From a virus (Duplodnaviria; Heunggongvirae; Uroviricota; Caudoviricetes): a stretch of 64,000 nt of DNA. The notes beneath the pieces were generated by a model. It saw nothing but the letters and a program-made list of their open reading frames with translations. It was not told where the DNA came from and did no database searches. The translations under genes were made by a program, and so were the position numbers. The stretch covers positions 43,502-107,501 of the IMG/VR virus record IMGVR_UViG_3300021399_000121. The stretch is one strand, 5' to 3'. Positions 25,052 through 60,324 of this stretch are shown in pieces (the stretch's first letter is position 1; every line of letters starts with the position of its first letter).

Positions 25052-25064
25052 GTTAATTATAAAC

Positions 25065-27016: not shown

Positions 27017-27038
27017 TTAAACGAATGGGGATTTTATA

Positions 27039-29342: not shown

Positions 29343-29349
29343 TATAAAT

Positions 29350-30110: not shown

Positions 30111-30117
30111 ATTTTAT

Positions 30118-30197
30118 GCGCATATGGCGGAGTCTGGTCGATCGCAACGGCCTGCAAAGCCGTATAATCGTTAGTTCAAATCTAACTATGCGCTCCA
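30118..30197 (+). tRNA. tRNA-Cys (anticodon GCA).
   Basis: Acceptor GCGCATA/TATGCGC, anticodon stem ACGGC/GCCGT with loop CTGCAAA, T-arm GTTAGTTCAAATCTAAC, CCA encoded. Confidence 0.55.
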
Positions 30198-30201
30198 ATA
30201 T

Positions 30202-30294
30202 GGAAGTGTGGCCGAGTGGTTGATGGCGCTTCTCTGCTAAAGAAGTAGGCGATGTAGAGTCGTTTCCGGGGTTCAAATCCCCGCACTTCCTCCA
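30202..30294 (+). tRNA. tRNA-Ser (anticodon GCT), type II.
   Basis: Acceptor GGAAGTG/CACTTCC, anticodon stem CTTCT/AGAAG with loop CTGCTAA, long variable arm, CCA encoded. Confidence 0.55.
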
Positions 30295-33036: not shown

Positions 33037-33219
33037 ATGAGTAAAATTAATATAAAAGCATTAATTTGTACTATTATAACTCTTATATTAATTCCTTTAC
33101 TTACCTATGCCGTATTAACGAATGCTATTCTTTTTATAATTGTTGGAATAATATTGGGTATTATTGTAATTATAGTACTTTTTTATGGATTATATGTATT
33201 TTTTGATGAATGCTTTTAA
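33037..33219 (+). CDS. Small membrane protein with two TM helices.
   Basis: ORF track entry; hydrophobic throughout. Confidence 0.4.
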   Translation: MSKINIKALICTIITLILIPLLTYAVLTNAILFIIVGIILGIIVIIVLFYGLYVFFDECF

Positions 33220-45456: not shown

Positions 45457-45891
45457 TTTCTTATACTTAACAGTGAAATTTCTACTACTCAAATGGAATT
45501 TGGGTGCGCACACAATCACGACCCAGTCAAGAAATTTCCAAATCGAGTCCTAAAAATTTTTTAACGAGTGTAACCGCACGAGTCCCGCACATGATTTTCA
45601 TTTCTGATCCTCTTGGAATAAAATATTAGTTGCCAGCTGTCTAATATTTATGCTATAATATATTTGTAAGAAAGGGAAAGGAAATTTAATCCCAATCTTA
45701 TATATCAAGTTTCCTTCAAGAAGAAATAAAAAACTTCTTGACAATCGAAAAGGAAATATGATATAATATAAATGTAAGAAAGGGAGAGATGCTGGAGAAA
45801 GGAATCCCGTTTGGGACGTCCTCCCAGGAAGTGAAAAGAAATTTCATTTCCAAAACGAGACCGCTCGCAAGAGCAGAAAAGGAGAGCCACC

Positions 45892-46260
45892 ATGGCCGAG
45901 AAGAAGATCACCATCGCTGAGAAGTTTGCTGCTACCATCGCTATCCTTGAGGGTGCTGAGCCTGAGATCGAGTTCGACGCAGTTGATGCAGTCGAGTTCC
46001 TGAAGGATCGTGCGGAGAAGGCCAAGTCCAAGCCGCGTGAGCGCAAGGTTAAGCCTGAGACCGCTAAGTTCCGTGAGGATGTAGGAGAGTTCGTCCTGCA
46101 TCAGCCTGAGCCTGTAACTGCGAAGATTGTTGCTGAGGCTCTCGGAGTTTCCACTCAGAAGGCATCTGCGGCTCTGCGGTTCCTGGTCGCTGAGGGTGAG
46201 GTTGTTGCCCATGACGGCGAAAAGGCTCGCGACGCCAAGACTTACGAGATTGCTCGCTAG
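45892..46260 (+). CDS. GC-rich small HTH-like protein. It is a paralogue of genes 48033..48398 and 49709..50029.
   Basis: All three share the architecture ITIAEKFAATIAILEG / KSKPRERKVKPE / IVAEALGVSTQKASAALRFLVAEG. GC is about 55% against a 35% background. Confidence 0.45.
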   Translation: MAEKKITIAEKFAATIAILEGAEPEIEFDAVDAVEFLKDRAEKAKSKPRERKVKPETAKFREDVGEFVLHQPEPVTAKIVAEALGVSTQKASAALRFLVAEGEVVAHDGEKARDAKTYEIAR

Positions 46261-46427
46261 TCTATAGCGGTAGGGGAGGGTGCAATGGGGCACCCTCCCA
46301 GGAAACAAATTTCAAATCTGATTTTTCATTTTCATTTCTGAGCTTTAAGATTCATATTTGAAATTTTCATTTCCAACTAACCGCAGGTTATTAAAGAAAA
46401 TTTTCATTTCCAAGAGAGAGGAAAATA

Positions 46428-46820
46428 ATGAAATACACTCTTCCTAAGTCATATGCAAATGCGGGATTGCAAGTCAATATTCCTGATGCTACACTTAAAC
46501 AATATAGGAGTGAACTCGGTAGCACCAAGGCCGCGGTTGATAAGTGGCTATATGAAAATGGTCACATGGCTAAGGTTGAGTATGAAGCTTCAGTAGAAAA
46601 GGTTGAAGCTAAAAAGCCTGCTAAGCGTGAATTCAAGGTAGATCAAGAAAAAAGTGAAATCATCAACTTTATCTATGAACGGTTGCGGGAGTATGAAGAC
46701 GAGGAAGGGTCAGCTCTTTTGTCCGAGGTAGAGATCATGAACCGCAACCGCCTAATTTCTTTCTCTCTTGGAGATAATAAGTATGAGCTGACCCTAGTGC
46801 GGAAGAAGCAATCTAAATAG
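46428..46820 (+). CDS. Hypothetical 130-aa protein.
   Basis: ORF track entry; RBS GAGAGGAAAATA. Confidence 0.4.
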   Translation: MKYTLPKSYANAGLQVNIPDATLKQYRSELGSTKAAVDKWLYENGHMAKVEYEASVEKVEAKKPAKREFKVDQEKSEIINFIYERLREYEDEEGSALLSEVEIMNRNRLISFSLGDNKYELTLVRKKQSK

Positions 46821-46904
46821 ATGATACGGAAGGCCATATGGTCGGTTCCTTTCTCTTAGGTGAGTTTCTGACGGCTCACCATATAATACACGGTGATCCT
46901 GACT

Positions 46905-46935
46905 AAGCCGTGGGTTAAGGCGTCCGAAAGGGCGC
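46905..46935 (+). terminator. Rho-independent terminator closing the plus-strand block.
   Basis: GGCGTCCGAAAGGGCGCC followed by TTTTCTTTT. Confidence 0.55.
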
Positions 46936-47621
46936 CTTTTCTTTTATGTGGTGCGGTGCGGTGCGGTGCAGCTGTCTAAAAAACTTTAAACAAATGTAAT
47001 ACTTTTTGGTGAACGGTATTAAATTTGCCGCGGATGGTAAGAATCGCTCTAGACGAATGTAATAAAGATATGATATAATTAATCTTAGAGATTAATTAAT
47101 ATATAAATATATATTTCTATATTATTATTATAGTTATATATATTTCTAATCCCCTAATATAATATATGTTGCGTTTCTCTCTCTTTTAATCTTATAATAA
47201 CTATTTAATAATATTTTATAACGATATTTTTACTAATAATTGCGTGCGGCCCTATACTAAAGTATAGGCCCTTACGCTTATACAGCGCCACTTTGAGCTA
47301 AAGCTCAAGGGCGCTTTTTTTATTGTCTAAAATTATTTTATTTAAAAAATAATTAAACTAAAACTATGCGGCGAACTTGACAAAAGCATAATTTTATGAT
47401 ATAATTAAAATGATTATTTTTTTAAAAAAAAAGAAGCTCTCAAAATAGCTTAAAAAAATCCCTAAAAAGTTGTTTTGTCCCTTGGCAAACCTTATGATAA
47501 ATGAGCTTTTTGCTGGGCAGAGAGCGCACTTCAGCTAAGCTAAAATAAGCTTTCCGACCAAGTAATCAGACCCTTTTTAAAATTGCGCAAATGAGAGCAA
47601 ATCAAGTAGTTTTCCACAACG

Positions 47622-47630
47622 TTATCCACA
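47622..47630 (+). promoter_or_regulatory. Perfect DnaA box TTATCCACA, with flanking TTTCCACA-like half-sites.
   Basis: GTTATCCACA at 47621-47630. Confidence 0.4.
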
Positions 47631-47750
47631 CTTTTTCCACCTATGGCCGCACGCCTTTATTTATTCTCTTCTCTTGGAATTTACTTGACAGAAACACAAA
47701 TTTATGATATAATTAAATGTTAATAAATTATAGCTGGTGTCAATAAATTT

Positions 47751-47839
47751 GCCTATAGCGAGTGCAAATTCGCGGCCTTATAGCGAGCACGGCTCGATGC
47801 GCCTATAGCGAGTGTCATCGTGAGGCCCTATAACGGCAG
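47751..47839 (+). repeat. Four direct repeats of GCC(T)TATAGCGAG (iterons or a centromere-like site).
   Basis: Copies at 47751, 47775, 47801 and 47825. Confidence 0.6.
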
Positions 47840-48032
47840 TCGTACATCCGTTCGGTTTTGGGATTTTAGTGAATTAATTGTGAAGATTTTGTGGAGATCG
47901 AATTTTTCCCTTGACTATGTGGTATAATTTCGCTAGAATGCGCCGCATTCTAGCGCTGAAAGGTTTAAGCAAAAGAAAAACCCCGCCATTACTGGGCGGG
48001 GTTCTCGCCATTACTGGGCGATTGGGTGAGAG

Positions 48033-48398
48033 TTACACCAGCTTGTAGCCGACGTAACGCCCTTTCACCTTTTCGACTTTCTCCACCTTGCCAGCGGAGA
48101 TAAGCACGGCCATAACCTTGGTGCATTTCTGCGAAGTCATGATGCCGTTGACATGCTCCATAATCCACGAGGTCAGCACAGGCTCACCCTCGGGCATAAC
48201 CTTGAGCACTTCACCAGCCAGACGGACGTTTTCCTTGGCCGCCTTGGACGGCTCATCAGACTTTACGCGAGGTTTGGTGATACTTGCTAGCATCTTGGCT
48301 GCGACCTCACGAGCATCCTCACGGGCGAGGGTTTCGTAGTCGCCATTTACGACAGCGGTCAGGACTTCAGCGCGGGTGATGGTGATGTTCTTAGCCAT
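48033..48398 (-). CDS. GC-rich HTH-like paralogue (MAKNITITRAEVL...).
   Basis: The start was trimmed to the ATG behind the conserved leader. The ORF track frame was extended upstream. Confidence 0.45.
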   Translation of the reverse strand: MAKNITITRAEVLTAVVNGDYETLAREDAREVAAKMLASITKPRVKSDEPSKAAKENVRLAGEVLKVMPEGEPVLTSWIMEHVNGIMTSQKCTKVMAVLISAGKVEKVEKVKGRYVGYKLV

Positions 48399-48639
48399 AA
48401 TCGGCTCCTTTCGGTTGTGGGTGAGAACTTTTTTCTCTCTCCCTCTGACAGTTAATATATTACCAGAGATTGCCGCAGGGGTCAACAAAATTTTGTGTCT
48501 ACACATTCTCTCCATAATTTCAGGATTTAAAACAAGCCTCTGACCTGGGGTTTTGGCGATCGATTTTTTTCCATGCCGGCACAAGGGCAAATTCGCTTGA
48601 TTCCGCCGGAATCAAGCGCTGAAAGGGTTCTAGATAGCA

Positions 48640-48668
48640 AAAAACCCGCCTTTTTGGCGGGTTTTGCT
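48640..48668. terminator. Bidirectional rho-independent terminator.
   Basis: AAAAAACCCGCCTTTTTGGCGGGTTTTGCTTT. Confidence 0.6.
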
Positions 48669-49367
48669 TTAGAATTGCTGGAAACGCTTTGAAATTTCTT
48701 TCCAATGGGGATTGTGTAAGCACATTCCAACAAAATCTGAATCAAATTTGCGCTTACGAGAGAGAATTTTGCAGAAAATGAAGGCTTCTATTTCGCAATC
48801 TTCGCGGGCGGTGTGTTTTTCTTCAAATTCAGGCGCATTTTTCAAATATTTGTAAACCGCTTCGGCGCCTGTCTGCGGATGGCCTTTTGCAGTGGTCAGG
48901 CCATGTACCGCGCAGAATTTCAGATAGTTTCGACTATTGCACAGGACGGACAAAGCCATATTCCAAATGTCCATGTATTTGACCTTAGATTTAAAGAAGT
49001 CCTCATATCCAAAATATTTGGCGGTCTTGGTCAGATGCGAAGCGTCAAACCCTGCATTGTAGGCGCACACGGTAGCCTTAAAAGCTTTTTGCACTTTGTT
49101 AATCGTGGAACGAATTTCTGCGAAGGGGAGAACTGTAAACGCTTCGGTTCCCATGAAAAGCTCAAAGTAATATTGAGCGATTTTAGTTTTAGTAAATGGG
49201 TCGTTGAACATGTCAAGCGTTTCAGGGTGATTCATGAACTCTTCACAGACAAAGCTACCCTCAGCGACCATGTTACCCTTGCGGTCGATTACCTTGTAAC
49301 CAAAGTCGAAAACCAGGTCGTTGCACGTTTCAGTGTCAAGAATCATGAAGAACTTTTTGCTTGCCAT
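48669..49367 (-). CDS. DnaQ-like DEDDh 3'-5' exonuclease.
   Basis: Exo I ILDTETCND, Exo II YNAGFDASHL and Exo III HTAREDCE. Confidence 0.55.
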   Translation of the reverse strand: MASKKFFMILDTETCNDLVFDFGYKVIDRKGNMVAEGSFVCEEFMNHPETLDMFNDPFTKTKIAQYYFELFMGTEAFTVLPFAEIRSTINKVQKAFKATVCAYNAGFDASHLTKTAKYFGYEDFFKSKVKYMDIWNMALSVLCNSRNYLKFCAVHGLTTAKGHPQTGAEAVYKYLKNAPEFEEKHTAREDCEIEAFIFCKILSRKRKFDSDFVGMCLHNPHWKEISKRFQQF

Positions 49368-49708
49368 TTTATTTCCTTTCTCTCTCTGACAGTTAATATA
49401 TTACAGCATATGCCGCGCATAGTCAAGCATTAATTTCGGGATTTTGTTTCTTCATAATTTCTTCACAATCGATCGTTTTGTTTTTCCCTTGAGCGTAAAA
49501 AGGCAAATTCGCTCGCTTCCTGCGTAAGCGAGCGCTGAATAAAAAAACTCCCGCGTCCTGTGCGCACAGGCTGATAGCGGGAGGGAGTCTATTCTTCGGG
49601 CACCTTACCATTCCCTTTTGTTTGGCGGGGCTACCGCATTAATAAACTGTTTAATCACCTCTTTTGGATTGTGGGCGGGGAATTTCACCCCGCCCTGTTT
49701 AGATTGGT

Positions 49709-50029
49709 CTAAAGCTTGTAAACTTTGACCTTTTCGGTCGTGGGAATCTCTTCCCACCCCATTGCCTTGCAGATGGCATTTGCCTTGGGTTTCGAGACCT
49801 CCAGAATTTCAGCCACATTTGCAGCCTTAAAAGTCTCTTCATCCCAGACCTCGGCGAACTTTTCACCAAGGGCGATGTTCGCATCATGCTTTGCCGTGTT
49901 AGCCTTGCGGGGACGCGGCTTCGTTACCTGAGCGTACATCTTCTCCAGAACCTCTACTGCTTCGGCATTCTCAACAGCAGCAATCGCGATTTCCAGAGCT
50001 TCCTTGCGGGTCATCTTCTTCTCGGCCAT
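49709..50029 (-). CDS. HTH-like paralogue (MAEKKMTRKEALEIAIAAVEN...).
   Basis: The start was trimmed to the ATG behind the leader AGGAAAATGACATG. Confidence 0.45.
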   Translation of the reverse strand: MAEKKMTRKEALEIAIAAVENAEAVEVLEKMYAQVTKPRPRKANTAKHDANIALGEKFAEVWDEETFKAANVAEILEVSKPKANAICKAMGWEEIPTTEKVKVYKL

Positions 50030-50746
50030 GTCATTTTCCTTTCTTTCGTGGGGAGGTTTTCCTTTTTTCCTCTCCCCTCCTGACACTTAGTATATTACTC
50101 CTGTTGCCCCTCAGAGTCAAGCAAAATTTTCGAGAATCTTTCCCTCCATATTTCCTTCACAATTGCGGTTGTGCCGGCGAATGAGCTCCTGACCTGGGGA
50201 AATGGGATCTTCCTGATGGGTTTAAATGTGAGTGATCTAGTCAACTTTTTCCCTAGTGCGTTTAAAGGGCAATTCGGTCGTTTGCGCCGCAAACGACCGC
50301 TGAAAGCAAATCGCCCTGCCGACCTGACGTGCAGCGGGGCGATAAGTTTTAATTTACCAAGCACGATATTGCTTTTCTGCAATTTCGCGATACCTGCCAT
50401 TTACAGTATTGCGGAAGATACGCCACAGTTTAAAGAATGGGTTTCTAGTTCTAAAGCCGTGTGCCCACAAGAACCAAAAGTTTTCAATTGACTTTTTCTG
50501 TGTCCAAGCAGTAGCAGCACGAATCATTTTGTCTCTTTCAGTAAACATAATTTACCCCACAATCAGAATCGAAATTACCACAAAGATTTTTCAGTTAATT
50601 TTAACCATTCAAAATTACAGTTACGGCAATACTCACAATCATCAGGATACCAAGAACAATCTACCCGTTCAAGTTTAATTAGTCTTTCAACTTCTTTTTG
50701 ACGTTTTTTTGCAAGTCGTTTTTGTTCTTTTTTACTTGGCATAATC

Positions 50747-51043
50747 TTACCCCACAATCAGAATTGAAATTACCAGTCCAGCGGTGAGAGCAGTCAGACA
50801 AGCGTTTTTGATTTTGTCGGCTGCGGGGCGCTCCAAGTAGAAATCACGACCAAGAGCAATGAGGTTTGCGGCCAACCAAATGAGCTGTGCAACTAGTGCG
50901 AGGTCAAAGCGGACGAGCACCTGACCGATAATGGTCAAACCCAGACCCAAGAGTTGAAGATTCTCAACCAGTGCTACGTGCTTGCGGCTTGCCAGTTTGT
51001 TTGCTTGCTTCTCAGTCATTTTTAGTTCCTCTCTCTCTGACAA
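50747..51043 (-). CDS. Small membrane protein with two or three TM helices.
   Basis: ORF track entry; follows the conserved leader CTGTCAGAGAGAGAGGAACTAAAA. Confidence 0.45.
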   Translation of the reverse strand: MSEREELKMTEKQANKLASRKHVALVENLQLLGLGLTIIGQVLVRFDLALVAQLIWLAANLIALGRDFYLERPAADKIKNACLTALTAGLVISILIVG

Positions 51044-51166
51044 TTACATAGTATCATATTGATGGCATAATGTCAACTAATTTTTTAAAATTTCTTTGTT
51101 TCTATAAAATCCTTACAATGGAGCCAAGGCATAAAAACCCCTCGTTTGAGGGGTTTTAGTCATTGT

Positions 51167-51448
51167 TTAATTATTAGTAATTATTATTTGCCAATCATTC
51201 CCCCAATAGGGCTCAATGCTCAATATTTTGTAATTAAACCATCGTTTTATGCAAATAGGGCAATTATCTTTTTCGTTAGTCCAATTAATCATATTACCAA
51301 TTCTTTGTTCAGAGCTTGCTGAATAATCCCAATCTTCAATATTTTTGTTCAAATAAGTTTGATTATCGGATACGATAAAAAGATATATTGTAGCGTCATC
51401 ATCAAGTTCGTTTTTTTGTTCTGTTAGCCAATTTTGCAAGCTCATCAT
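51167..51448 (-). CDS. Hypothetical 93-aa protein.
   Basis: ORF track entry; conserved leader. Confidence 0.45.
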   Translation of the reverse strand: MMSLQNWLTEQKNELDDDATIYLFIVSDNQTYLNKNIEDWDYSASSEQRIGNMINWTNEKDNCPICIKRWFNYKILSIEPYWGNDWQIIITNN

Positions 51449-52179
51449 CTTAGTTCCTTTCTCTCTCTCAGTGATTACATCTTACACTAATTGCGGCGTG
51501 GTGTCAATTAGAATTTCAGGATTTTTTTGTCTCTACAGAATCTTCACAATCGCGATCGATCTTTTCTGGCCCGGGTGTAATGGTAAAATCGTGCGCTTTG
51601 GCCGAAAGCGCACGCTAAAAGCACTTAGGGCGGGTCACTACTCCCGCCCTCCCGTTGCATCACTTTTTATTTTAACGCCAAGAGCAACGCTGGACAACGA
51701 ACTTGGCGAGTGAACACTAAAGAGAAGCCCAGAGCTGGCACAAAATAGGGCCAAAAATCAAGCTGATAAAAACGAGATACACAACACATACAACTGGCAC
51801 GGCGATTTTCATAATTAGTCCTTCCAAAAGAAGTGGCGTAGGTGGAGATTGCCTAGCGCCCCGCTCAGGTTTAAAGAGGTTGTCTGACTGCCCCTACATG
51901 GAGGTCTTACTGCACATAGCACCTTGGGTGCCCCTCGGGTCTTACCCGTCTCCGAGCTCCGTCCTCTGACACTGTTAATATTACAGGAGTGCGGCCCATT
52001 TGTCAACCAGAATTGGTGTCTCCATAGGTTCTTCACATTTCAGGATTCCGATCGATCAGTGAGTGCGGTTTGTGCCGGTGATTAAATCTCTGACCTGCGG
52101 AAATAGCGAAAATCGTTCGCGTGGGCCGCACGCGAACGCAACCAGGATGGCTTTCTGGCTGCGTTCTGCGGTTTTTGGT

Positions 52180-52356
52180 TTAGACTTCCACATCCTCTAC
52201 AAAATCGCCATCTTCATCATAAATATCTGCGTGACCTCCGCCCATTTCGCGCAATTCAGCTTCGACCGCATTAATCAAAGACTTGTAGTTGTCATAATAG
52301 AAATAACTGCTGCCGCAATCATCGATGCCGTCAAATTCTACATAGTAAGTATTCAT
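52180..52356 (-). CDS. Small acidic 58-aa protein.
   Basis: Conserved leader GGAAAGAGGATG. It is absent from the ORF track because it is shorter than 60 aa. Confidence 0.35.
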   Translation of the reverse strand: MNTYYVEFDGIDDCGSSYFYYDNYKSLINAVEAELREMGGGHADIYDEDGDFVEDVEV

Positions 52357-52442
52357 CCTCTTTCCTTTCTCTTTACCTTACGGGTAAATTGTATCATAGA
52401 AAACAGTAGAAGTGAAGACCCCTTGCGGAGTCTTCACATTTT

Positions 52443-52640
52443 CTACACGTAGTATTCTTTACCAGAGGGGGTTACAATTCTCGCGACTTGCACATGATTA
52501 ACATAAACGAACTTTTTAGCTTCATCCATGACTTCAACGATGCAAGTTGCTTTGTATTCCCGCACACAGGAGCGACCAATAAAATCTTTGTACTTGAGCT
52601 GATAAACAACCTTTTTTGCGACTTTCTTTTTCATGGTCAC
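52443..52640 (-). CDS. Small basic 65-aa protein.
   Basis: ORF track entry; leader AGAGAAGGGAGTGACCATG. Confidence 0.4.
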   Translation of the reverse strand: MTMKKKVAKKVVYQLKYKDFIGRSCVREYKATCIVEVMDEAKKFVYVNHVQVARIVTPSGKEYYV

Positions 52641-52667
52641 TCCCTTCTCTCTTGGACTACGTCCAGT

Positions 52668-52916
52668 TTACCAGAGGTCTACCACAATATCAAGGTCGTT
52701 TTTGTCCTTCACATCTTCTCCACAATCGCGAAGTTGTGGCAAAAGATTTTCGCTTAATGGCATAGTAATTTCTGCCCCGACAAAGTCTTCTGAATCGAGA
52801 ACAATCTCTTCAGCAGCAATACGACGTTCGATTTCTTGAATAGCATCAGCCATAGTATCGGCTTCAATTACAATACGACGTTCGAGAGTTTCTTTGTAAT
52901 CAAAAGTGAATTTCAT
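52668..52916 (-). CDS. Hypothetical 82-aa protein.
   Basis: ORF track entry; leader AAGGAGAATTCATT. Confidence 0.4.
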   Translation of the reverse strand: MKFTFDYKETLERRIVIEADTMADAIQEIERRIAAEEIVLDSEDFVGAEITMPLSENLLPQLRDCGEDVKDKNDLDIVVDLW

Positions 52917-53458
52917 AATGAATTCTCCTTAACGATGACGATTGACCAACATACTGACTAAAAAAGGAGGAATAAATCCAGCTAAAAAGGGAACGAGTAC
53001 ATTACAAATAAATGCAGTCATAATTAATCCTCCTGCCCTTCTTCATCTTCATCTTCATACCGATGAGTAAAAATACTTTCAATCTCTCCATTCTTCATTT
53101 TTTGCTCAAAAAATTTTTGCGATTCTTGACTTTTTTTCTGAAGAAATTCGAACAGCGTCATGATTAATCCTTTCCTTTCTCTCTTGGATACATAATATCA
53201 TAGTCAGTTTCAGGATGCAATACTCTTCACAAAATCGTCACAATTGGAGTGATTTTTTTCAGCCTCGCGATAAACGTAATTTCGCTCGCTTGCGCCGCAA
53301 GCGAGCGCCCAAAGGTTTGGGCGCTCTTTTCATTTTTATTTTTTAAAAATTTTATTTTGCCAAATTGCAATTTCATCTTCATTCAAAAAGAGGGCTATTG
53401 CAATTATGATTATGAAAATGAATGCAATAATCAAATCAGAAAGTAACATTTCAATTTC

Positions 53459-53671
53459 CTAAGCTTTAAATTTGTTTCCCCAACCATCAGACAAATACAG
53501 CGGTTTAATAGTGTCTTTACAATTCCCTATAAAGGAAACAGCTTTATTAATGGCTTCTGCAACACCCAAGCATTTTCCGAGGTCGGTTTGACGATTGACC
53601 CATTCATTTTTATAGCTATAGTAAATCGCATAATGGAGCTTGTAATTGCCAACCCATTCCCGTTTCACCAT
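53459..53671 (-). CDS. Hypothetical 70-aa protein.
   Basis: ORF track entry; conserved leader. Confidence 0.4.
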   Translation of the reverse strand: MVKREWVGNYKLHYAIYYSYKNEWVNRQTDLGKCLGVAEAINKAVSFIGNCKDTIKPLYLSDGWGNKFKA

Positions 53672-53875
53672 TTCAGTTCCTTTCCTTTAACTTACAAATA
53701 AATTGTACTATAGATTATTTCCATTGTCAAGAAGAATTTCAGGATTTGGCTTCTTCATAATTACTTCATAAGTGCGGAAGATCTTTTTTCTGATGTAATT
53801 AAATGTAAAATCGTCCGCTGTGGCCGACAGCGGACGCGGAGCCTTTTTTGACTCCGCGTCCAAAAGAGAGAAGAA

Positions 53876-54082
53876 CTAGAAAAGTCTTTCGAGGTCTGCC
53901 CAGCTGTAGCCAATCGCAGGGGAGAGAATCAAGCGGCCAATTCCGATTTGCCATTTGAATTGCTCTTCTGCCTTCTTTTTAGCTTCAAGCAAATCTTCCT
54001 TGGTTGCGAAGAAGTCTACTCGCTGTTCATACAACTCAAAGGTGTCCTCATCTATCCATTCCCAAACCAGCATGAACTCCAT
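53876..54082 (-). CDS. Hypothetical 68-aa protein.
   Basis: ORF track entry; conserved leader. Confidence 0.4.
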   Translation of the reverse strand: MEFMLVWEWIDEDTFELYEQRVDFFATKEDLLEAKKKAEEQFKWQIGIGRLILSPAIGYSWADLERLF

Positions 54083-54277
54083 GATTTTTCCTTTCTCTCT
54101 CTCCCTGATGAATACATAATACTACAAAACATTACAGGATGCGGCATTTCCACATAATCTTCACAATTGCGATATTTTCTTTCTCTACCGGGTGTAAAGT
54201 GAATTTCGTTCGCGCTGGGCCCAGCGCGAACGCTGAGAGAGTTGCGGCTCTCTCGCGTTCATGATTTAAGCTCTTTT

Positions 54278-54724
54278 TTACAGCAGCTCCCGCAAAGCTG
54301 CAATCATCTTTTTAGTATCGGATGCATCTATCGTTTCACCCTTCCAAGCATTCCGCACGTCTGAATTATCGTCTACCAGAATAGAGTCTTTCACATTCCG
54401 CACATAATGTTTAGGAGTACCATATTTCACAACATGAAATTCAGAAAATACGCCAGGGAAGTATTCATCGCACCATATCTTTTTGGCTTTGCGGGTACGC
54501 CTACAATATTCACGGCTACCACCCATAGCACCCCAAGAGATAACACCAAGAATAAAACCTGCGGCCAGCAGTGCATTGAAAAGTTGCCGCAACTCTTCTA
54601 TATCAAAGATAACCGCGCAATCTTTATATGGAGTTGTATCTTCTACTTTCAGCATTTCCAGCCATCCCTCATATCCGTAGAGGTCTGCAATTGTTCCGTC
54701 CATGTCAAAATAGATAGCCTGCAT
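54278..54724 (-). CDS. HAD-superfamily phosphatase.
   Basis: FDMDGTIADL matches HAD motif I (DxDGT); 148 aa. Confidence 0.5.
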   Translation of the reverse strand: MQAIYFDMDGTIADLYGYEGWLEMLKVEDTTPYKDCAVIFDIEELRQLFNALLAAGFILGVISWGAMGGSREYCRRTRKAKKIWCDEYFPGVFSEFHVVKYGTPKHYVRNVKDSILVDDNSDVRNAWKGETIDASDTKKMIAALRELL

Positions 54725-55264
54725 TTGATTTCCTTTCTCTCAGTGATTACATACTACCATAATTCGTCTCTTGGAGTTATGGGATTCGCATATTCATAAT
54801 ATATACATATATTGCGAGTACGATTTTTCCCTGTTCATGCAAAAGGGCAATTCGGCCATTTGCTCTGAAAAACGCGCCGCAAATGGCCGGTTAAGCCTTA
54901 TACGCTTATAATTACATTATATCATAGCTTGAATTATATGTCAACCAGTTTGTCAAAAAATTTCTTATATTCACAAAATTCACACATTTGACCTTATAGT
55001 ACTGTATGTTTGCTTTATGTGCTTTATATGGAGATTTTGTGGAGATATTGTGTAGTTTCAGGATTGTAAAATAATTGTGTAGATATTGTGAAGACTCTTG
55101 ATTTTTCTCTATGTATATGGCACAATATCTCGCCCAACTTGTGGAGATTTTGTGGAGATATTGTGAAGATAATTGTGGAAATATTATGTTTTCAATGTGC
55201 AATTATTGAGGAGAAGCGACCCCTTTGTGGGGCCGCCCCCCTTTAAAACATGTGAATATTGAGC

Positions 55265-55561
55265 TTACAACTCAACAATAGAGATAAACTCATCGCCGTT
55301 CGGGTAACGCACGCCACCGCACATATACCCGAACATGTCCGCCAATTCGTCCAACGTCTCAATATAATCATCGTCGCTAGGAAACAGGCCATCAAACACG
55401 ACTTCGCAGCCCTGATACGAATACAGAATGTTTTCGTAAGCATACAGAGACAAGACATTGTCGCCGTATGTATTTGTATGCGAGTAGTTCATCATTTCGT
55501 CGAACAGGCTCTCAAGGTGATTTTTAACGCTTGCGTTGTTGGTGTTCATTTGGTAGGTCAT
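55265..55561 (-). CDS. GC-rich small protein (MTYQMNTNNASVKN...).
   Basis: Trimmed start; the 5' leader hairpin is TTGACCCGAAGGGTCAA. Confidence 0.4.
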   Translation of the reverse strand: MTYQMNTNNASVKNHLESLFDEMMNYSHTNTYGDNVLSLYAYENILYSYQGCEVVFDGLFPSDDDYIETLDELADMFGYMCGGVRYPNGDEFISIVEL

Positions 55562-56032
55562 CTTAGTTCCTCTCTCTTTCGGTTGACCCTTCGGGTCAAT
55601 TATAGCGTTGTCAATACTTTTTTTCAATGTTTTTTAAAATTAATCGGTGAGCGGTTAAATTAATCGGTAAATGGTAATTTTAGGATAGTATAAAATAATT
55701 GTGTAGATTTTGTGTAGACTATTGTTTTTTCTTTGCAAGTGTGGTATAATTTTTCGCTGAGATATGTAGATTTTGTGGAGATTTTGTGGAAATAAATTCA
55801 TAGAAAAAACATAATAATTTACATAATAAAAACATAATTAATTCATACAATCCTCATAATTATTTTACATAATCTCCATAATCAGGATACAAAATAAATT
55901 GTGTAAATGTTGTGAAGAGTCTTGATTTTTCTCTACATATGTGGTATAATATTTCGCCAATTGTGGAGATTTTGTGAAGATTTTGTGGAGATAATCGTGG
56001 GGAGGCCGAAGCCTCCCCTCATGGTCATGTTG

Positions 56033-56311
56033 TTAGAGTTCTTGAACCCTTACATATTTGAACATGTACCAGTATCCATTAATAAGTGCGGACTCATGCT
56101 CAATAAACAATTCATATCCAAACTCTGGGAGAATGTCGGCAAGTTCGTACATGTCAATGTACCCCGTTTTCTCACTCTGTAACACTTGCCATGTCCCACT
56201 GTTTTGCAATTCATCCATCGAAGCCCACGTGTTTGCGCTAGCGTCTGTTTCGACCTGATGCGCGAGGATTGTCTCTATAATCTCGTTGATGTAGTTTTTC
56301 ATGTTCGCCAT
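56033..56311 (-). CDS. GC-rich small protein (MANMKNYINE...).
   Basis: Trimmed start; the leader hairpin is GGCCCTACGGGCC. Confidence 0.4.
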   Translation of the reverse strand: MANMKNYINEIIETILAHQVETDASANTWASMDELQNSGTWQVLQSEKTGYIDMYELADILPEFGYELFIEHESALINGYWYMFKYVRVQEL

Positions 56312-56799
56312 TTGAGTTCCTTCCACTCGGTTTTTGTTTGGCCCGTAGGGCCATTTTACTCTTGTCAATAGGTAAAATCAACGTTTTTTAAAATTAATCG
56401 GTAAACGGTTAAATTAATCGGTAAATGACAATTTAAGATAATATAAAATAATTATGTAGATTTTGTGGAGATTTTATAAAGATTTTGTGAAGATTAATTC
56501 ACAGAAAAAACATAATAAAAGCATAATTAATTCATACAATCTTCATACAATCTCCGGTTTTAGGACACATAATCTACATAAAATCTACATACTATCTTCA
56601 TATTTTCTTCACAATTGCGTGGTATAATTTTTTCGCCGAGATATGCAGATTTTGTGAAGATTCTGCATTTAGTCTTGATTTTTTTCTACAGGCGTGGTAT
56701 AATTTTTTCGCTAGTCATGGAGATTTTGTGGAGATATTACATTTAATATTGACAAATAAAAAGCCCCTCATTTGAGGGGCTTTTGAATCACAATTCATT

Positions 56800-57132
56800 T
56801 TAGCGGCTGTTGTACGTTTCACGCGCTGGACGATTCATAAAGTCGTTGAGGTCTTTCAACAAGGGGAGTAATTCAGAGTTGAAAAATGACTCATCGTCCC
56901 ACACAGTAGCAGCAGTTTGCTTTGCGAGGAAGTGAAGCGCCATCCCAGCAGTTTTACCCTCAGTGTGCGCTTGAGGGTGGTCATAAGTGTACAGGCTCGC
57001 AAGGTAACCGCACTCATAAGGAGAAACCCAAATTTCTACATTACCACGAGTAGCGATATAGCGCATGCCCTCGCGCGTGTTCAGAGCTTCAAATGTTCCG
57101 TTGTTCTTCGTTGCTTTAGTCATTTCAATCAT
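56800..57132 (-). CDS. Hypothetical 110-aa protein.
   Basis: Leader hairpin GAACCCTACGGGTTC. A bidirectional terminator lies at 56760-56786. Confidence 0.45.
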   Translation of the reverse strand: MIEMTKATKNNGTFEALNTREGMRYIATRGNVEIWVSPYECGYLASLYTYDHPQAHTEGKTAGMALHFLAKQTAATVWDDESFFNSELLPLLKDLNDFMNRPARETYNSR

Positions 57133-57618
57133 CCTTCCTGTTGAACCCTACGGGTTCATTGTAGTCTTGTCAATAGGTAAAATCAATATTCTACATAAAT
57201 CTCCATACAAATAACATAATTAAAATTACATACAATCTACATAATTAATTCACATAATCTACATAATGAAAACATAATTAATCCATACGATCTACACAAT
57301 TAGGACACAAAATAAATTGTGGAGATTTTGTGTAGGCTCTTGACATTTTTCTGCGGGTGTAGTATAATATTTCGCCAATTGTGGAGATTTTGTGGAGATT
57401 TTGTGGAGATTAATCCACAGAAAAAACATAATTAATTCACACAATCTACATAATAAAAACATAATTAATTCACACGATCTACACAATTTCAGGATACTTT
57501 AATTGTGTAAAAGTTGTGGAGTTTTTGTGGATTTTTTATGGAGAGCGCGTCAAAATGGTAAAATCGCTCGTTTGCCCTATGCGTGGGTCCGCAAACGAGC
57601 GGCCAGCCCTTTCAAGCT

Positions 57619-57768
57619 GGCCAGGTTGTATTCAGCTACACTCTAGAACGGAGCGTAGGCCAGTTCTCCAGCGTTGGGCTGTGCCGCAATCCACATCTCG
57701 CAGTCAACCTCACAGACCAACCCTTCCTTGACGACCTTGCCAGTAGCCTTCTCGAATACTGTCCACAT
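57619..57768 (-). CDS. About 49-aa protein, MWTVFEKATGKVV...APF. It is paralogue 1 of a pair.
   Basis: Conserved leader AGGAAAGGACAGGACATG. Its sequence aligns with the product of 57960..58091. Confidence 0.35.
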
Positions 57769-57959
57769 GTCCTGTCCTTTCCTCTCCTGCTGACAGGTCT
57801 ATTATACACCTGTGCCCCTGCCGCATGTATGAGAATCAGGATACTCCACAATCTCTACACAACTATATAGATCGCTTGATCTTTCTCTTGGTGCGTGTAA
57901 AGGACATTTCGCTCGCCTAGGCCCGTAGGCGAGCGCTGGGAGGTCTTACTATCCCAGTG

Positions 57960-58091
57960 CTCTGAGCAGGACTAGAATGGCGCGCAATCCAGTTCGTCTC
58001 TATTCTCCTGCGCGTCAATCCACATCATCGCATCTACCTCAGTCTCGAACCCGTCCGCTACGACCTTGCCCGTGTTCTTGTTGAAGACCGT
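57960..58091 (-). CDS. About 43-aa protein, MWTVFNKNTGKVV...APF. It is paralogue 2 of the pair.
   Basis: Forms the C-terminal part of ORF 57972..58385; follows its own leader and promoter. Confidence 0.35.
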
Positions 58092-58302
58092 CCACATATT
58101 CTTTCCTCTCTCTCTTTCTGACATAATCATTGTACCACAAGTCGTGCCGCATGTAAAGATAGATTCAGGACTCTCCACAATCTCTACACAACTCTTTCTC
58201 TTGGATGATCTTTCTTGTGGTGCGCATAAACGATAATTCGCTCGCTGCGGCCCACAGCGAGCGGCCAGGTCTTTGTAGTTTACTGTGCGGTACTGGGGCA
58301 GG

Positions 58303-58526
58303 CTAGTTGCCCAGCCCCATAGCGTCCAGCATATCCCACACTTTGTAGTCATCTGCAGTGGTTCCTGTGGGAGTGAAGTCTGCAATCTCTACTATCCGTA
58401 CGCTTCCGCGCTTGTAGCACGAGTATGTACGAGCTTCTGCCGCATTGTTCTTGCAGGTGGAGAGAGAACCCCACCAGTGCAGGCAGGTCTCGGTGGAGTT
58501 GGCGAAGGTGGCGATGACTGCGAACA
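58303..58526 (-). CDS. GC-rich small protein (MFAVIATFANSTETC...).
   Basis: Trimmed start behind the leader GAGAGAAAGGATACAACATG. Confidence 0.4.
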
Positions 58527-59212
58527 TGTTGTATCCTTTCTCTCTGACAAGTACATAATACACCTTAACTGTATCTGTGTACAGTCTCTTCACAATCTTT
58601 TCATAAGTTTCAGGATATGAAAGATCATATTAGAATATGTATTTGGAAACTATTTTTATTTCTAGTATGCGTAAGTGACAATTCGCTCGTGTTGGCCCAA
58701 CACGAGCGAGCATCGTGAGAGTGTGCACGAGAGAGCGTGCGCGCAAGACCGCACAAAGCCTGCAAAGACGTGCCAGCAAGCGAGACAGCCGGGCTGCACG
58801 AACTGTCCTCTCTTGGGGTGATGGGAGGGTGTAGACATTGTTGCTATTATTTTATCGGTCGAGTATAGAAGACTGTTACATCATTATGATGATAAATAAA
58901 CTTCCTAGTAGGGGGGGTGATTATGGGATTTTTTAATATTGACTTGTGAAATGTCTTTTGCCTCGCAATCCAAAGAACGTACTTTAAATTTTAAATTTCA
59001 AGAACGTACTTAAGAATCCAAATCAAAATTTCCTATATTAAAATTTCCCAATATATCAAATTTCGGAAAACTTACCTCTCTAAAAATTATATTATATAGC
59101 TTAAAATTTTATGTTTCTATCCAAAAAAGTCATAGACAGTGTTGCTTTGTCAGTGATATAATAAGAATAGAAATAAAAGATTTGAGCTTAGCTTAAATCG
59201 GAAAGGAAGCAG

Positions 59213-60310: not shown

Positions 60311-60324
60311 AGGAGGAAGGATAT

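What the first reader, a model, noticed from the sequence alone, without database searches (positions are those of the whole stretch)
46850..48030. ORF-free convergent junction carrying a DnaA box, an AT-rich tract, iterons, (GGTGC)4 and three orphan promoters
Between the plus-strand and minus-strand blocks lies 1.2 kb without ORFs. It contains a terminator (46905), a (GGTGC)4 microsatellite (46948-46971), an 85-90% AT tract (47060-47240), a perfect DnaA box (47622-47630) with TTTCCACA-like neighbours, and four GCCTATAGCGAG repeats (47751-47839). It also has three consensus promoters (about 47050, 47370, 47680) whose transcripts carry no ORF but end in hairpins or terminators (47270-47325). 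It is a candidate replication origin and/or small-RNA locus.
Basis: seen in the sequence. Interest (0 to 1): 0.6.

Follow-up and report, generated by a model that had tools for sequence, protein, structure and literature searches.

The report
Gene-free phage control island
A conserved 1.2-kb gene-free stretch of an uncultivated gut or rumen phage carries four strong promoters, a new structured small RNA gene and three binding sites for the host replication initiator DnaA, so it is a real control region, but nothing shows that it is the replication origin.

Summary
Several exceed chance. The three DnaA-type boxes appeared in 1 of 400 simulations. The AT tract is the least stable DNA in the window. 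Three of the ten exact TATGATATAAT promoter motifs lie in 2% of the window.

The gap stays non-coding even when TGA is read as sense, which this phage does in its late genes. It is syntenic in 14 related contigs.

Four promoters (P1–P4), not three, all point rightwards.
- P1 drives a terminator-delimited RNA of about 240 nt. Its 3' hairpins are kept by compensatory changes (99% of cells paired, 8 covarying pairs). It matches no Rfam family.
- P4 belongs to a repeated family: a promoter flanked by 11-bp boxes, then a 5' hairpin, facing the 3' ends of minus-strand genes.

The DnaA boxes persist, with substitutions, down to 70% identity of the flanking protein. A sister lineage instead carries 11–23 TTATCAACA-type boxes in the same gap.

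Evidence against an origin:
- cumulative GC skew is at a maximum here
- the AT tract lies 370 bp from the boxes, beyond a terminator
- the "iterons" are degenerate
- phage T5 has similar DnaA boxes that are not at its mapped origins.

Verdict: small-RNA and regulatory locus supported; origin unproven.

The parts
46821..46947 (+). Structured element just after the stop codon of the + gene. It has an invariant CU-rich anti-Shine-Dalgarno-like motif GGTCGGTTCCTTTCTCT (46840-46856), a variable hairpin 1 (46859-46880), an invariant hairpin 2 CACGGY-GATCCTGACTAA-GCCGTG (46889-46912) and terminator T1 (46917-46938 plus T run). Read on the minus strand, it also looks like the stereotyped promoter, leader hairpin, SD and ATG module of the minus-strand genes.
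   Evidence: The CU-rich motif is present in all close relatives and in L017, L020, L023 and L024. Hairpin 1 has at least five unrelated stem sequences at the same position: GGTGAG/CTCACC, TGGGCA/TGCCCA, TTAGCC/GGCTAA, GCGGG/CCCGC and TAGGC/GCCTA. RNAalifold pairs GAAAGG with CCUUUC, and the G-U pairs favour the + strand. However, the start codon is not conserved (none in L004, ATT in L013, TTG in L010) and the -10 element is absent in L024.
46950..46969 (.). (GGTGC)4 microsatellite
   Evidence: TRF gives 4.0 copies at 100% identity. Relatives carry 2-4 copies, so it is probably neutral slippage.
47050..47094 (+). Promoter P1 (-35 TAGACG 47050-47055, extended -10 TGATATAAT 47071-47079) with a 15-bp palindrome TAATCT-TAG-AGATTA across the predicted start site
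   Evidence: Promoter scan. The -35, the -10 and the next 30 nt are invariant in eight sequences although the surroundings diverge. L023 keeps a palindrome with changed arms, AAATC-TAT-GATTT.
47086..47322 (+). P1 RNA, a non-coding transcript of about 240 nt. It consists of an AT-rich tract (47080-47240) containing a CU-rich run TTTCTCTCTCTTTT (47174-47187), hairpin A (47242-47277) and terminator T2 (47284-47321).
   Evidence: The fold energy is -58.7 kcal/mol, z = -5.98. On six sequences 99.1% of cells are paired, 8 pairs carry changes on both sides, and slid controls reach at most 60%. An invariant G-U pair fits a + strand RNA. The sequence and length of the AT tract vary among relatives, but its AT-richness and a CU-rich run are kept. 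There is no Rfam match.
47377..47405 (+). Promoter P2 (TTGACA-17-TATAAT with TG extension)
   Evidence: It matches 12 of 12 consensus positions and is conserved in all relatives that reach it.
47450..47609 (+). Conserved non-coding block downstream of P2. It contains repeated AAATAAGCTT motifs and the string GGCAGAGAGCGCA.
   Evidence: Three-way identity is 78-90%, equal to or above that of the flanking genes. The RNA fold is no better than shuffles (z = +0.35). It is not coding.
47610..47641 (+). Trio of DnaA-type boxes, same strand: TTTTCCACA (47610), TTATCCACA (47622) and TTTTCCACC (47633). They are followed by a GC cluster GGCCGCACGCC (47645-47655) and a CT-rich run (47656-47677).
   Evidence: A comparable triple appeared in 1 of 400 simulations. 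The trio is identical in L003, L004 and L009. Box 2 is mutated in L012. It is kept as three box-like sites in L017 (TTTTCCACT/TTTTACACA/TTTTCCCCA) and L023 (TTTTCCACA/TTTTCCACT/TTTTCCACC), and is absent in L020 and L024. The same three-box pattern occurs in the unrelated phage contigs L005 and L007.
47685..47713 (+). Promoter P3, a near-duplicate of P2 (89% over 35 nt)
   Evidence: It matches 12 of 12 consensus positions and repeat D4 links it to P2. It is present in the window, L012, L017 and L023, absent in L004, and replaced by other sequence in L003 and L009.
47751..47839 (+).
   Evidence: Only the GCCTATA core recurs in L003, L009, L017, L023 and L024, and at different spacings. The hairpins that could follow each core are not kept in register.
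47856..47928 (+). Four 11-bp-phased boxes of the TTRTGNAGATT family (47856-47899) upstream of promoter P4 (TGTGGTATAAT, 47918-47928)
   Evidence: The motif has 24 hits against 2.1 expected in the window. A PWM places about 50 strong copies at 47878-47899 and 51.5-58.6 kb. G at position 8 in 93% of copies separates it from the DnaA box. In L004, L012 and L017, P4 is a full TTGACA-17-TAAAAT promoter.
47931..48006 (+). P4 RNA: a 5' hairpin CGCTAGAATGCG/CGCATTCTAGCG (47931-47955), a linker CTGAAAGG..., and the hairpin of terminator T3 (47976-48006). T3 is the strong terminator of the minus-strand gene and has only a weak U tract on the + strand.
   Evidence: The 5' hairpin is compensated in L004, L012 and L017 (GGCCGCGCGCGGCC). 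Paralogous CGCT...AGCG hairpin units lie at 48594, 57565, 57910 and 58684, each beyond the 3' end of a minus-strand gene.

Best explanation
The gap is a conserved, gene-free control island at the point where the + gene block meets a block of small minus-strand genes.

Shown:
- It contains four co-directional host-type (sigma-70/sigma-A) promoters and three intrinsic terminators.
- It contains three families of short DNA repeats.
- It contains no coding sequence under either genetic code.
- The P1 unit has the anatomy of a small-RNA gene: an invariant promoter, no ORF or ribosome-binding site, and a 3' hairpin plus terminator kept by compensatory changes.

Inferred mechanism:
1. P1 makes a stable RNA of about 240 nt. 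Its unstructured AU-rich and CU-rich part may pair with the long purine-rich ribosome-binding sites (AGAGAAAGGAA) of the phage's small genes.
2. P2, P3 and P4 transcribe towards the minus-strand genes. The + strand U tract of terminator T3 is weak, so they would give antisense transcripts or transcriptional interference against the neighbouring gene and beyond. This is what the repeated P4-type units do at other minus-strand genes.
3. The DnaA-box trio, which lies between P2 and P3, and the 11-bp box array at P4 are protein-binding sites that gate these promoters. The trio would bind host DnaA. The 11-mers would bind a phage or host factor that has not been identified.

This reading does not exclude that the P1 transcript or the DnaA sites also serve replication.
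For: - The gap is non-coding under both genetic codes.
- Promoter-like sites number 20 against 7.6 ± 3.5 expected in 45.5-49.5 kb, including three 12/12 matches. The TATGATATAAT motif is the phage's general promoter type (33 hits against 7 expected), and 3 of the 10 exact copies lie in this 1.2 kb.
- The order of elements is kept in 10 contigs of the window type, down to 70% identity of the flanking protein.
- P1 RNA covariation: 8 compensated pairs and 99% of cells paired, against at most 60% in slid controls.
- P4 belongs to a repeated promoter, box and 5'-hairpin family that faces the 3' ends of minus-strand genes. The box family is also present in the distant relative L002.
- Minus-strand genes carry stereotyped long purine ribosome-binding sites that are complementary to the CU-rich runs.
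- In the sister lineage, arrays of DnaA-like 9-mers sit directly upstream of P4-type promoters. That fits a role in promoter control.
Against: - There are no expression data. The promoters and terminators are consensus matches only.
- The P2 transcript has no stable or covarying structure, so its conserved block probably acts as DNA.
- CU-rich RNA is complementary to almost any Shine-Dalgarno sequence, so the proposed pairing is not specific.
- Constitutive convergent promoters would interfere with the neighbouring gene at all times unless they are regulated, and no regulator has been identified.
- The trio is missing in L020 and L024.
- The same anatomy (promoter, non-coding transcript, AT-rich DNA, DnaA boxes) is also what a transcript-primed or DnaA-assisted origin would look like.
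Confidence: 0.45

Rival explanations
1. It is a replication origin. The strong promoter P1 transcribes into the least stable DNA of the region, and the transcript primes or opens the duplex. This is the model proposed for the lactococcal phage c2 PE1-T transcript. From my own knowledge, T4 oriF/oriG, the T7 primary origin and ColE1 work on the same principle. Host DnaA bound to the box trio would help with unwinding or helicase loading.
For: - The AT tract is the least stable 100-mer in 64 kb and lies directly downstream of an invariant promoter.
- As described for c2-type origins, two conserved tandem promoters flank a non-coding segment that is the most variable part among relatives. At least three versions exist here (PMC7150918).
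- The DnaA trio is statistically unusual and conserved. It has tandem boxes with 2-3-bp gaps, a GC-rich spacer and five NAN trinucleotides on the appropriate strand, reminiscent of the basal unwinding system (PMC8287927).
- A DnaQ-like exonuclease gene lies 640 bp away.
Against: - Cumulative GC skew has a local maximum here and a minimum at about 55-59 kb.
- The flanking genes converge. In c2 the origin lies between divergent blocks and PE2 drives genes.
- The AT tract is 370 bp from the boxes, with a terminator and a promoter in between.
- The DNA next to the boxes is not consistently AT-rich (L004 lacks P3).
- Box 2 is lost in L012 and the trio is absent in L020 and L024.
- In T5, comparable DnaA boxes lie far from the mapped origins.
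- No initiator gene lies next to the region.
Confidence: 0.3
2. It is the counterpart of the T5 terminal-repeat 'Repeat Region 3', the candidate injection stop signal. On this reading it is a non-coding nucleoprotein site at the boundary of a long terminal repeat that carries the first-expressed genes. Host DnaA, which is largely membrane-associated, would bind there to arrest or anchor the entering genome.
For: - T5 Repeat Region 3 is also about 1.2 kb and untranslated. It is better conserved than neighbouring ORFs and is full of direct repeats and palindromes. It carries DnaA and DnaA* boxes in pairs separated by 3 bp (10.1101/866236).
- The adjacent block of about 10.5 kb on the minus strand consists of small genes, each with its own promoter. 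It includes a 5'-deoxyribonucleotidase-like gene, as does the T5 repeat with dmp.
- In the sister lineage the gap carries 11-23 TTATCAACA/TTATTAACA-type boxes. These are the variants most common in T5-like phages.
Against: - There is no DNA match to any phage in the INPHARED collection, T5 relatives included.
- There is no 131-bp inverted-repeat pair with a 52-bp spacer and no second copy elsewhere in the window.
- The genome ends and any terminal repeat are unknown. The junction is internal and syntenic in all contigs.
- The T5 model itself is an untested proposal.
Confidence: 0.1
3. It is an iteron-type origin, a partition site or a packaging site. On this reading the four GCCTATAGCGAG repeats are binding sites for a phage initiator, a ParB-like protein or a terminase small subunit.
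For: - Four direct repeats at regular 24-25-bp spacing occur only here in the window.
- Small winged-helix-like paralogues flank the gap on both sides.
Against: - Only a 6-7-nt core (GCCTATA) is shared among relatives, and its number and spacing change.
- The units are only 60-74% identical to each other.
- No Rep, ParB or terminase small-subunit domain is found in the neighbouring genes.
- The terminase gene is 13 kb away.
Confidence: 0.05
4. It is a largely neutral spacer. On this reading terminators, leftover promoter duplicates and chance motifs have accumulated between convergent genes.
For: - The (GGTGC)n copy number, the AT-tract sequence and the presence of P3 all vary.
- Single DnaA boxes are not enriched in the window.
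Against: - Several blocks are as conserved as, or more conserved than, the flanking genes.
- The order of elements is kept down to 70% identity of the flanking protein.
- Compensatory changes maintain the hairpins.
- The DnaA triple arose in only 1 of 400 simulations.
Confidence: 0.05

Closest known systems
Origin region of lactococcal Ceduovirus phages (c2, bIL67 and 923 types) with the non-coding PE1-T transcript (PMC7150918 and the work cited there)
   Same: - A non-coding segment is bounded by two tandem strong host-type promoters.
- The first promoter has no ORF or ribosome-binding site downstream and makes an untranslated, terminated transcript.
- The segment between the two promoters is the most variable part among related phages.
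   Different: - The c2 origin lies between divergently transcribed early and late blocks, and PE2 drives the early genes. Here the flanking genes converge and P2 is followed by no gene.
- DnaA boxes are not part of the description of the c2 origin that I read.
- There is no sequence similarity.
- Replication function has not been tested here.
Phage T5 left-terminal-repeat Repeat Region 3, the candidate injection stop signal (Davison, bioRxiv 10.1101/866236)
   Same: - An untranslated region of about 1.2 kb that is conserved more strictly than neighbouring ORFs.
- Direct repeats and palindromes.
- DnaA-type boxes spaced 2-3 bp apart.
- A neighbouring block of small early-type genes that includes a deoxyribonucleotidase-like gene.
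- The sister lineage uses the same TTATCAACA/TTATTAACA box variants.
   Different: - T5 has eight boxes arranged in two 131-bp inverted-repeat units. Here there are three direct boxes.
- No terminal repeat has been shown.
- No homology has been detected.
- The host type is probably different, because the promoters are of the extended -10 kind typical of Gram-positive bacteria.
Bacterial oriC basal unwinding system: tandem DnaA boxes, spacer, DnaA-trios and an AT-rich region (PMC8287927, PMC6669920)
   Same: - Tandem boxes on one strand, with the best match upstream.
- A GC-rich spacer.
- A run of NAN trinucleotides on the strand that runs 3'-to-5' away from the boxes.
   Different: - The spacer from the nearest box is 15 nt, whereas about 13 nt from the better-conserved box is most common.
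- No AT-rich unwinding element follows.
- The GC-skew sign is the opposite of what an origin gives.
- The site lies inside a transcription unit of a phage.
Convergent antisense RNAs of phages (lambda oop, P22 sar) and C-rich or CU-rich seed sRNAs of Firmicutes (RoxS/RsaE type). This comparison rests on my own knowledge.
   Same: - Short RNAs with their own promoter and terminator, and no ORF, made from a promoter that faces the 3' end of a gene (P4 type).
- A single-stranded pyrimidine-rich segment able to pair with Shine-Dalgarno regions (P1 RNA).
   Different: - There is no sequence or Rfam relationship.
- The targets are unproven.
- P1 RNA is unusually AU-rich, and its central part is not conserved in sequence.

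Membership tests
Trans-acting small RNA gene (P1 RNA) | Own promoter and Rho-independent terminator, with no ORF or ribosome-binding site between them | tested here: met
   The promoter is invariant in eight relatives.
Trans-acting small RNA gene (P1 RNA) | Secondary structure maintained by compensatory substitutions | tested here: met
   On six sequences 99.1% of cells are paired and 8 pairs carry changes on both sides, against at most 60% paired in slid controls. The fold z-score is -5.98.
Trans-acting small RNA gene (P1 RNA) | The transcript is detected and acts on targets | not testable with these tools
   No expression data are available. No Rfam family matches.
DnaA-dependent origin (oriC / basal unwinding system type) | At least two tandem DnaA boxes close to TTWTNCACA, no more than 3 bp apart | tested here: met
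   Boxes lie at 47610, 47622 and 47633. A comparable triple arose in 1 of 400 simulations.
DnaA-dependent origin (oriC / basal unwinding system type) | At least three DnaA-trios (3'-NAN-5') within 16 bp of a box | tested here: inconclusive
   Read from the sequence, five NAN trios start 15 nt after box 3. The published rule is loose, and a pyrimidine-rich run satisfies it easily by chance.
DnaA-dependent origin (oriC / basal unwinding system type) | An AT-rich unwinding element directly next to the boxes and trios | tested here: not met
   The AT tract lies 370 bp upstream, beyond a terminator and P2. The downstream DNA is not conserved as AT-rich.
DnaA-dependent origin (oriC / basal unwinding system type) | Cumulative GC skew at a minimum at the site | tested here: not met
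   There is a local maximum at about 47 kb and a minimum at about 55-59 kb. Only 64 kb of a genome of about 140 kb were available, and skew follows gene orientation.
Transcript-primed phage origin (c2 PE1-T type) | A non-coding segment between two tandem early-type promoters, with the first transcript untranslated and terminated | tested here: met
.
Transcript-primed phage origin (c2 PE1-T type) | Position between divergent early and late gene blocks, with the second promoter driving the early genes | tested here: not met
   The flanking genes converge and no gene follows P2.
Transcript-primed phage origin (c2 PE1-T type) | The fragment supports plasmid replication without phage proteins | not testable with these tools
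   This needs cloning in a host.
T5-like Repeat Region 3 / injection stop signal | DnaA or DnaA* boxes in pairs separated by 3 bp within a large untranslated region | tested here: met
   The gaps between boxes are 3 and 2 bp.
T5-like Repeat Region 3 / injection stop signal | Boxes embedded in a 131-bp inverted-repeat unit with a 52-bp spacer, and a second inverted copy some kb away | tested here: not met
   No such inverted repeat is found in the region or the window.
T5-like Repeat Region 3 / injection stop signal | Location at the inner boundary of a long terminal repeat | not testable with these tools
   The genome ends are unknown. The junction is internal in all contigs.
Iteron-type origin | Several near-identical direct repeats of 17-22 bp, with conserved spacing | tested here: not met
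   The core is 12 nt and the units are 60-74% identical. Only GCCTATA is kept in relatives, at varying spacing.
Iteron-type origin | An adjacent gene for a Rep-type initiator | tested here: not met
   The neighbours are proteins of 121-130 aa. One has only weak winged-helix signals and the others have none. No Rep domain is detected in Pfam, PHROGs or PDB sequences.
Type III toxin-antitoxin antitoxin RNA (ToxI-like), or a phage mimic of one | Near-identical tandem repeats of about 34-45 nt behind a promoter. This definition is from my own knowledge. | tested here: not met
   The units are 24-25 nt, only half of each is conserved, and no toxin gene follows.

The most novel reading that the evidence does not exclude
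The syntenic gene-free gap may be a platform that recruits host DnaA and is conserved across a whole clade of TGA-recoded gut and rumen phages. One lineage has three canonical boxes. The sister lineage has 11-23 TTATCAACA-type boxes. Both are wired to arrays of 11-bp-phased boxes and to convergent antisense promoters that switch off the early-gene block. Together with T5 and the unrelated contig L005, this would mean that large lytic phages of distant hosts repeatedly exploit the host replication initiator at a non-coding region. The purpose could be replication start, genome anchoring or timing of gene expression.
Probability: 0.2. Interest if true: 0.75.

Novelty: new variant of a known kind. 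Interest (0 to 1): 0.45.

Why it matters
Large conserved non-coding regions of lytic phages are rarely explained. This one provides four things.
- A new structured phage small RNA with covariation support.
- A further, independent case of DnaA-box clusters in a large phage. The T5 case has been known since 1987 and is still unexplained.
- A link to a repeated system of box-flanked promoters that face the 3' ends of early genes. This hints at systematic antisense control.
- A clade with many metagenomic relatives, so each element can be tested by comparison.

If the DnaA sites are functional, they would connect the phage programme to the replication state of the host. If the P1 unit is an origin transcript, it would extend the c2-type priming mechanism to 140-kb phages.

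Tried and rejected
- Hidden coding sequence. ORFs of at least 20 aa were checked under the standard code and with TGA as sense. The 38-96-aa + ORF starting at 47591 has a conserved N-terminus only because the DNA is conserved. Its length and C-terminus differ in each relative and it has no ribosome-binding site. The 72-codon minus frame shows no third-position bias.
- A minus-strand 54-aa ORF antisense to the left gene (46673-46837). It shares wobble positions with the + gene and its start codon is not conserved, so I treat it as non-coding.
- Known RNA families. None was found at gathering thresholds or at E ≤ 10.
- Known phages. There was no DNA match in near or distant mode.
- T7-like phage RNA polymerase promoters. 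CTATAGCGAG resembles the T7 -5/+5 region, but the motif does not recur elsewhere in the window.
- A CRISPR-like or ToxI-like array. The units are too short and too degenerate.
- RNA hairpins in the GCCTATA units. Changes in relatives are not compensatory in register (read).
- A structured P2 RNA. The fold is no better than shuffles.
- The invariant hairpin-2 sequence as a widespread motif. The only extra hit, L016, was a chance match inside a coding region.
- Prophage or host identification through bacterial genomes. There was no hit.
- Homology of the flanking proteins to solved structures. Nothing significant was found.
- The 11-bp boxes as DnaA boxes. I reject this because position 8 is G in 93% of copies, where the DnaA box has T.
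Full report
**Context.** The window comes from a large uncultivated phage with about 36% GC. It carries a ROOL RNA and an array of 18-19 tRNA genes. It has no DNA match in the INPHARED phage collection. Late genes use TGA as a sense codon. The terminase-like ORF 61482-63293 has seven in-frame TGA codons and ends in TAA. With TGA read as sense, giant ORFs appear at 1-10.5 kb and 59-63 kb. Genes between 12 and 58 kb have 0-2 in-frame TGA. The finding lies where the long + block ends (last gene 46428-46820). There it meets a block of about 10.5 kb of small minus-strand genes (48033 to about 58600). Each of those genes has its own promoter, a short leader and a long purine-rich ribosome-binding site.

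**Observation.** All listed features are present.
- The gap 46821-48032 has no credible ORF under the standard code or with TGA as sense.
- Promoter-like sites are enriched: 20 against 7.6 ± 3.5 expected.
- TATGATATAAT is the phage's general promoter signature (33 hits against 7 expected). Three of its ten exact copies lie in this 1.2 kb.
- The AT tract is the least stable 100-mer of the window.
- One DnaA box alone means nothing (23 hits against 22.6 expected). Three same-strand boxes at 12- and 11-bp spacing arose in only 1 of 400 simulated windows.
- The (GGTGC)4 repeat varies from 2 to 4 copies among relatives and looks like slippage.
- The four "iterons" are two exact and two degenerate copies.

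**Comparative material.**
- Close relatives came from IMG/VR (L003, which is the same contig as L001 and L008, and L004). Short metagenome contigs added L009-L013.
- A search with the right-flank protein found 114 homologues.
- Their contigs show the same synteny. An exonuclease-like gene and the 121-aa gene lie on one side. A gene-free gap of 0.74-1.5 kb follows. Two small genes on the other strand lie on the far side.
- The whole left-to-right order of elements seen in the window is kept in L003, L004, L009 and L012. It is also kept in L017 and L023, where the flanking protein is 76% and 70% identical.
- Several non-coding blocks are as conserved as the flanking genes.

**Anatomy, left to right.**
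1. *46821-46947.* This element holds an invariant CU-rich motif (GGTCGGTTCCTTTCTCT). It also holds a hairpin whose stem sequence differs completely between genomes while pairing is kept, an invariant second hairpin, and terminator T1.
   - On the minus strand the same DNA resembles the promoter, leader and ribosome-binding-site modules of the minus-strand genes.
   - That reading is weakened because the start codon and the -10 element are not conserved in all relatives.
2. *P1 (47050-79).* The promoter and the 30 nt after it, including a palindrome across the start site, are invariant in eight sequences.
3. *P1 transcript, about 47086-47322.* It runs through the AT tract, which contains a CU-rich run, into hairpin A and terminator T2.
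   - The sequence and length of the tract vary among relatives, but AT-richness and a CU-rich run persist. There are at least three versions, and L003 and L009 even carry an extra promoter cassette.
   - On six sequences, hairpin A and the top of T2 are 99.1% paired, with 8 pairs changed on both sides. Slid controls reach at most 60%. An invariant G-U pair favours + strand RNA.
   - This is good evidence for a structured small RNA. It matches no Rfam family.
4. *P2 (47377-405).* It is conserved everywhere. Its transcript has no stable fold, although the block 47450-47655 is well conserved. That points to DNA-level sites.
5. *The DnaA-type trio (47610-47641).*
   - It is identical in L003, L004 and L009. 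It loses the central box in L012.
   - It is kept as three box-like sites in L017 (TTTTCCACT/TTTTACACA/TTTTCCCCA) and L023 (TTTTCCACA/TTTTCCACT/TTTTCCACC). At the central box of L017 the two changes fall on the degenerate positions of the consensus.
   - It is absent in L020 and L024.
6. *P3.* This is a near-copy of P2. It is present in the window, L012, L017 and L023 only.
7. *The GCCTATA repeats.* Only the 6-7-nt core is shared among relatives, and the spacing changes.
8. *Four 11-bp-phased boxes of the TTRTGNAGATT family, then P4.*
   - The motif has 24 hits against 2.1 expected. About 50 strong copies are concentrated at 51.5-58.6 kb. It also occurs in the distant relative L002.
   - Its invariant G at position 8 separates it from the DnaA box.
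9. *The P4 transcript.* It starts with a 12-bp hairpin that is compensated in relatives, and it ends at T3. T3 is a strong terminator for the minus-strand gene but has a weak U tract on the + strand.
   - Paralogous units of -10 element plus CGCT...AGCG hairpin lie just beyond the 3' ends of other minus-strand genes.
   - P4 is therefore one member of a repeated set of convergent, presumably antisense, units.

**Is it an origin?**

In favour:
- A strong invariant promoter fires into the least stable DNA.
- The DnaA trio is conserved.
- The layout resembles c2-type origins, where two tandem promoters flank a variable non-coding segment whose transcript is thought to start replication.
- The arrangement of boxes, GC spacer and purine-rich trinucleotides recalls the basal unwinding system.

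Against:
- Cumulative GC skew is at a local maximum here and at a minimum near 55-59 kb. Skew simply tracks gene orientation, however, and only part of the genome is visible.
- The flanking genes converge.
- The AT tract is 370 bp from the boxes, with a terminator and a promoter in between.
- The DNA next to the boxes is not consistently AT-rich.
- The trio is dispensable in some relatives.
- No initiator gene is adjacent.
- In T5, conserved DnaA-box pairs with the same 3-bp gaps lie in a 1.2-kb untranslated region far from the mapped origins.

**The sister lineage.** In L019, L022 and L025 the same syntenic gap has no P1 RNA. It carries 11-23 boxes of the type TTATCAACA, TTTTCAACA or TTATTAACA, in arrays directly upstream of P4-type promoters. 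In L019 the density is about 15 per kb in the gap against about 1 per kb in the flanks. These are the very variants called DnaA* boxes in T5-like phages. An unrelated 139-kb phage contig (L005) has eight canonical boxes in two opposed arrays next to an AT-rich tract. Clusters of DnaA-type boxes in non-coding regions of large phages are therefore recurrent. Their role remains open.

**Conclusion.**
- Best supported (0.45): a gene-free control island that makes non-coding RNAs and carries protein-binding arrays. P1 RNA is a real structured small RNA. P2-P4 transcribe convergently into the minus-strand module. The DnaA trio and the 11-mers gate these promoters.
- Main rival (0.30): a transcript-primed and/or DnaA-assisted origin. 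It is compatible with much of the same anatomy but has no positive support from skew or architecture.
- T5-like terminal-repeat boundary (0.10): cannot be tested without read data.
- Iteron, partition or packaging site (0.05) and neutral spacer (0.05): poorly supported.

Shown: sequence features, conservation, covariation and absence of coding. Inferred: transcription itself, DnaA binding, antisense action and the targets of P1 RNA.

**Limits.** There are no expression, coverage or terminus data. The host is unknown, because the bacterial genome scan found nothing. The close relatives are few and similar, so covariation rests mainly on L011, L017 and L023.

Noticed in passing
window 1-10478 and 59192-63293: TGA is used as a sense codon in late and structural genes. 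The terminase-like ORF 61482-63293 has 7 in-frame TGA and ends in TAA. With TGA as sense, ORFs of 1146, 1660 and 682 codons appear at 1-10.5 kb. Genes between 12 and 58 kb have 0-2 in-frame TGA. No tRNA with anticodon UCA is present in the window.
   Followed up: partly
window 51500-58600 (also 47856-47899; L002:8780-8880): About 50 copies of an 11-bp box TTRTGNAGATT form 11-bp-phased arrays in both orientations. They flank TGTGGTATAAT-type promoters in the intergenic spacers of about 400 bp between small minus-strand genes. Many of these promoters point against the genes.
   Followed up: partly
window 47931, 48594, 57565, 57910, 58684: A family of hairpins with conserved base CGCT...AGCG and covarying interiors sits right after a -10-like element. 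Each lies just beyond the 3' end of a minus-strand gene. The copies at 47931 and 48594 are followed by CTGAAAGG and a terminator.
   Followed up: partly
L019:6376-7876, L022:5376-6773, L025:5445-6659: In a sister lineage the syntenic gene-free gap holds 11-23 TTATCAACA/TTTTCAACA/TTACTAACA/TTATTAACA boxes. They are often head-to-head pairs, arranged in arrays upstream of P4-type promoters. They are the same variants as the 'DnaA*' boxes described in T5-like phages.
   Followed up: partly
L005:6380-6610 (IMGVR_UViG_3300005573_000058): An unrelated 139-kb phage contig has eight canonical DnaA boxes in two opposed arrays next to an AT-rich tract with TACTACTAC and TAGTAGTAG trinucleotide runs. This is an oriC-like layout inside a large non-coding, repeat-rich region.
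   Followed up: no
window 21245-21821 and 22610-30294: There is a ROOL RNA (331 bits) next to an array of 18 tRNA genes. A further tRNA-Gln(ttg) at about 23325-23399 is seen by Rfam, and by ARAGORN only at a relaxed threshold. RNA ligase and nucleotidyltransferase genes lie nearby (16027-19868, 33210-34055).
   Followed up: no
window 45892-46260 (+), 48033-48398 (-), 49709-50029 (-): The first two of these proteins of about 120 aa are weakly related (33% identity over 66 aa, E = 4e-4) and flank the gap in inverted orientation. The first has weak winged-helix-like (MarR/TrmB) matches. The third resembles them by eye only. Further copies of the 3' part of 48033-48398 occur in relatives. They are candidate binders of the repeats.
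   Followed up: partly
window 45600-52500: A segment on both sides of the gap has 44-48% GC, against 30-36% in most of the + block. The minus-strand genes there share a stereotyped leader, (T)GTCAGAG, followed by a long purine ribosome-binding site AGAGAAAGGAA.
   Followed up: no
window 54278-54724 (-): A 5'-deoxyribonucleotidase-like gene (PHROG 2643) lies in the small-gene block. It recalls the pre-early dmp gene in the T5 terminal repeat.
   Followed up: no
window 47242-47251, 47645-47654, 52124-52133: The 10-mer GCGTGCGGCC occurs three times: at the base of hairpin A, inverted just after the DnaA trio, and at 52124. The related CGTGAGGCCCTATA occurs at 47819.
   Followed up: no
L023:5558-6028: One relative has a 156-aa gene inserted inside the otherwise gene-free gap, next to the 121-aa gene. 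L017 carries a NUMOD/HNH-like endonuclease gene nearby. The junction therefore tolerates insertions.
   Followed up: no
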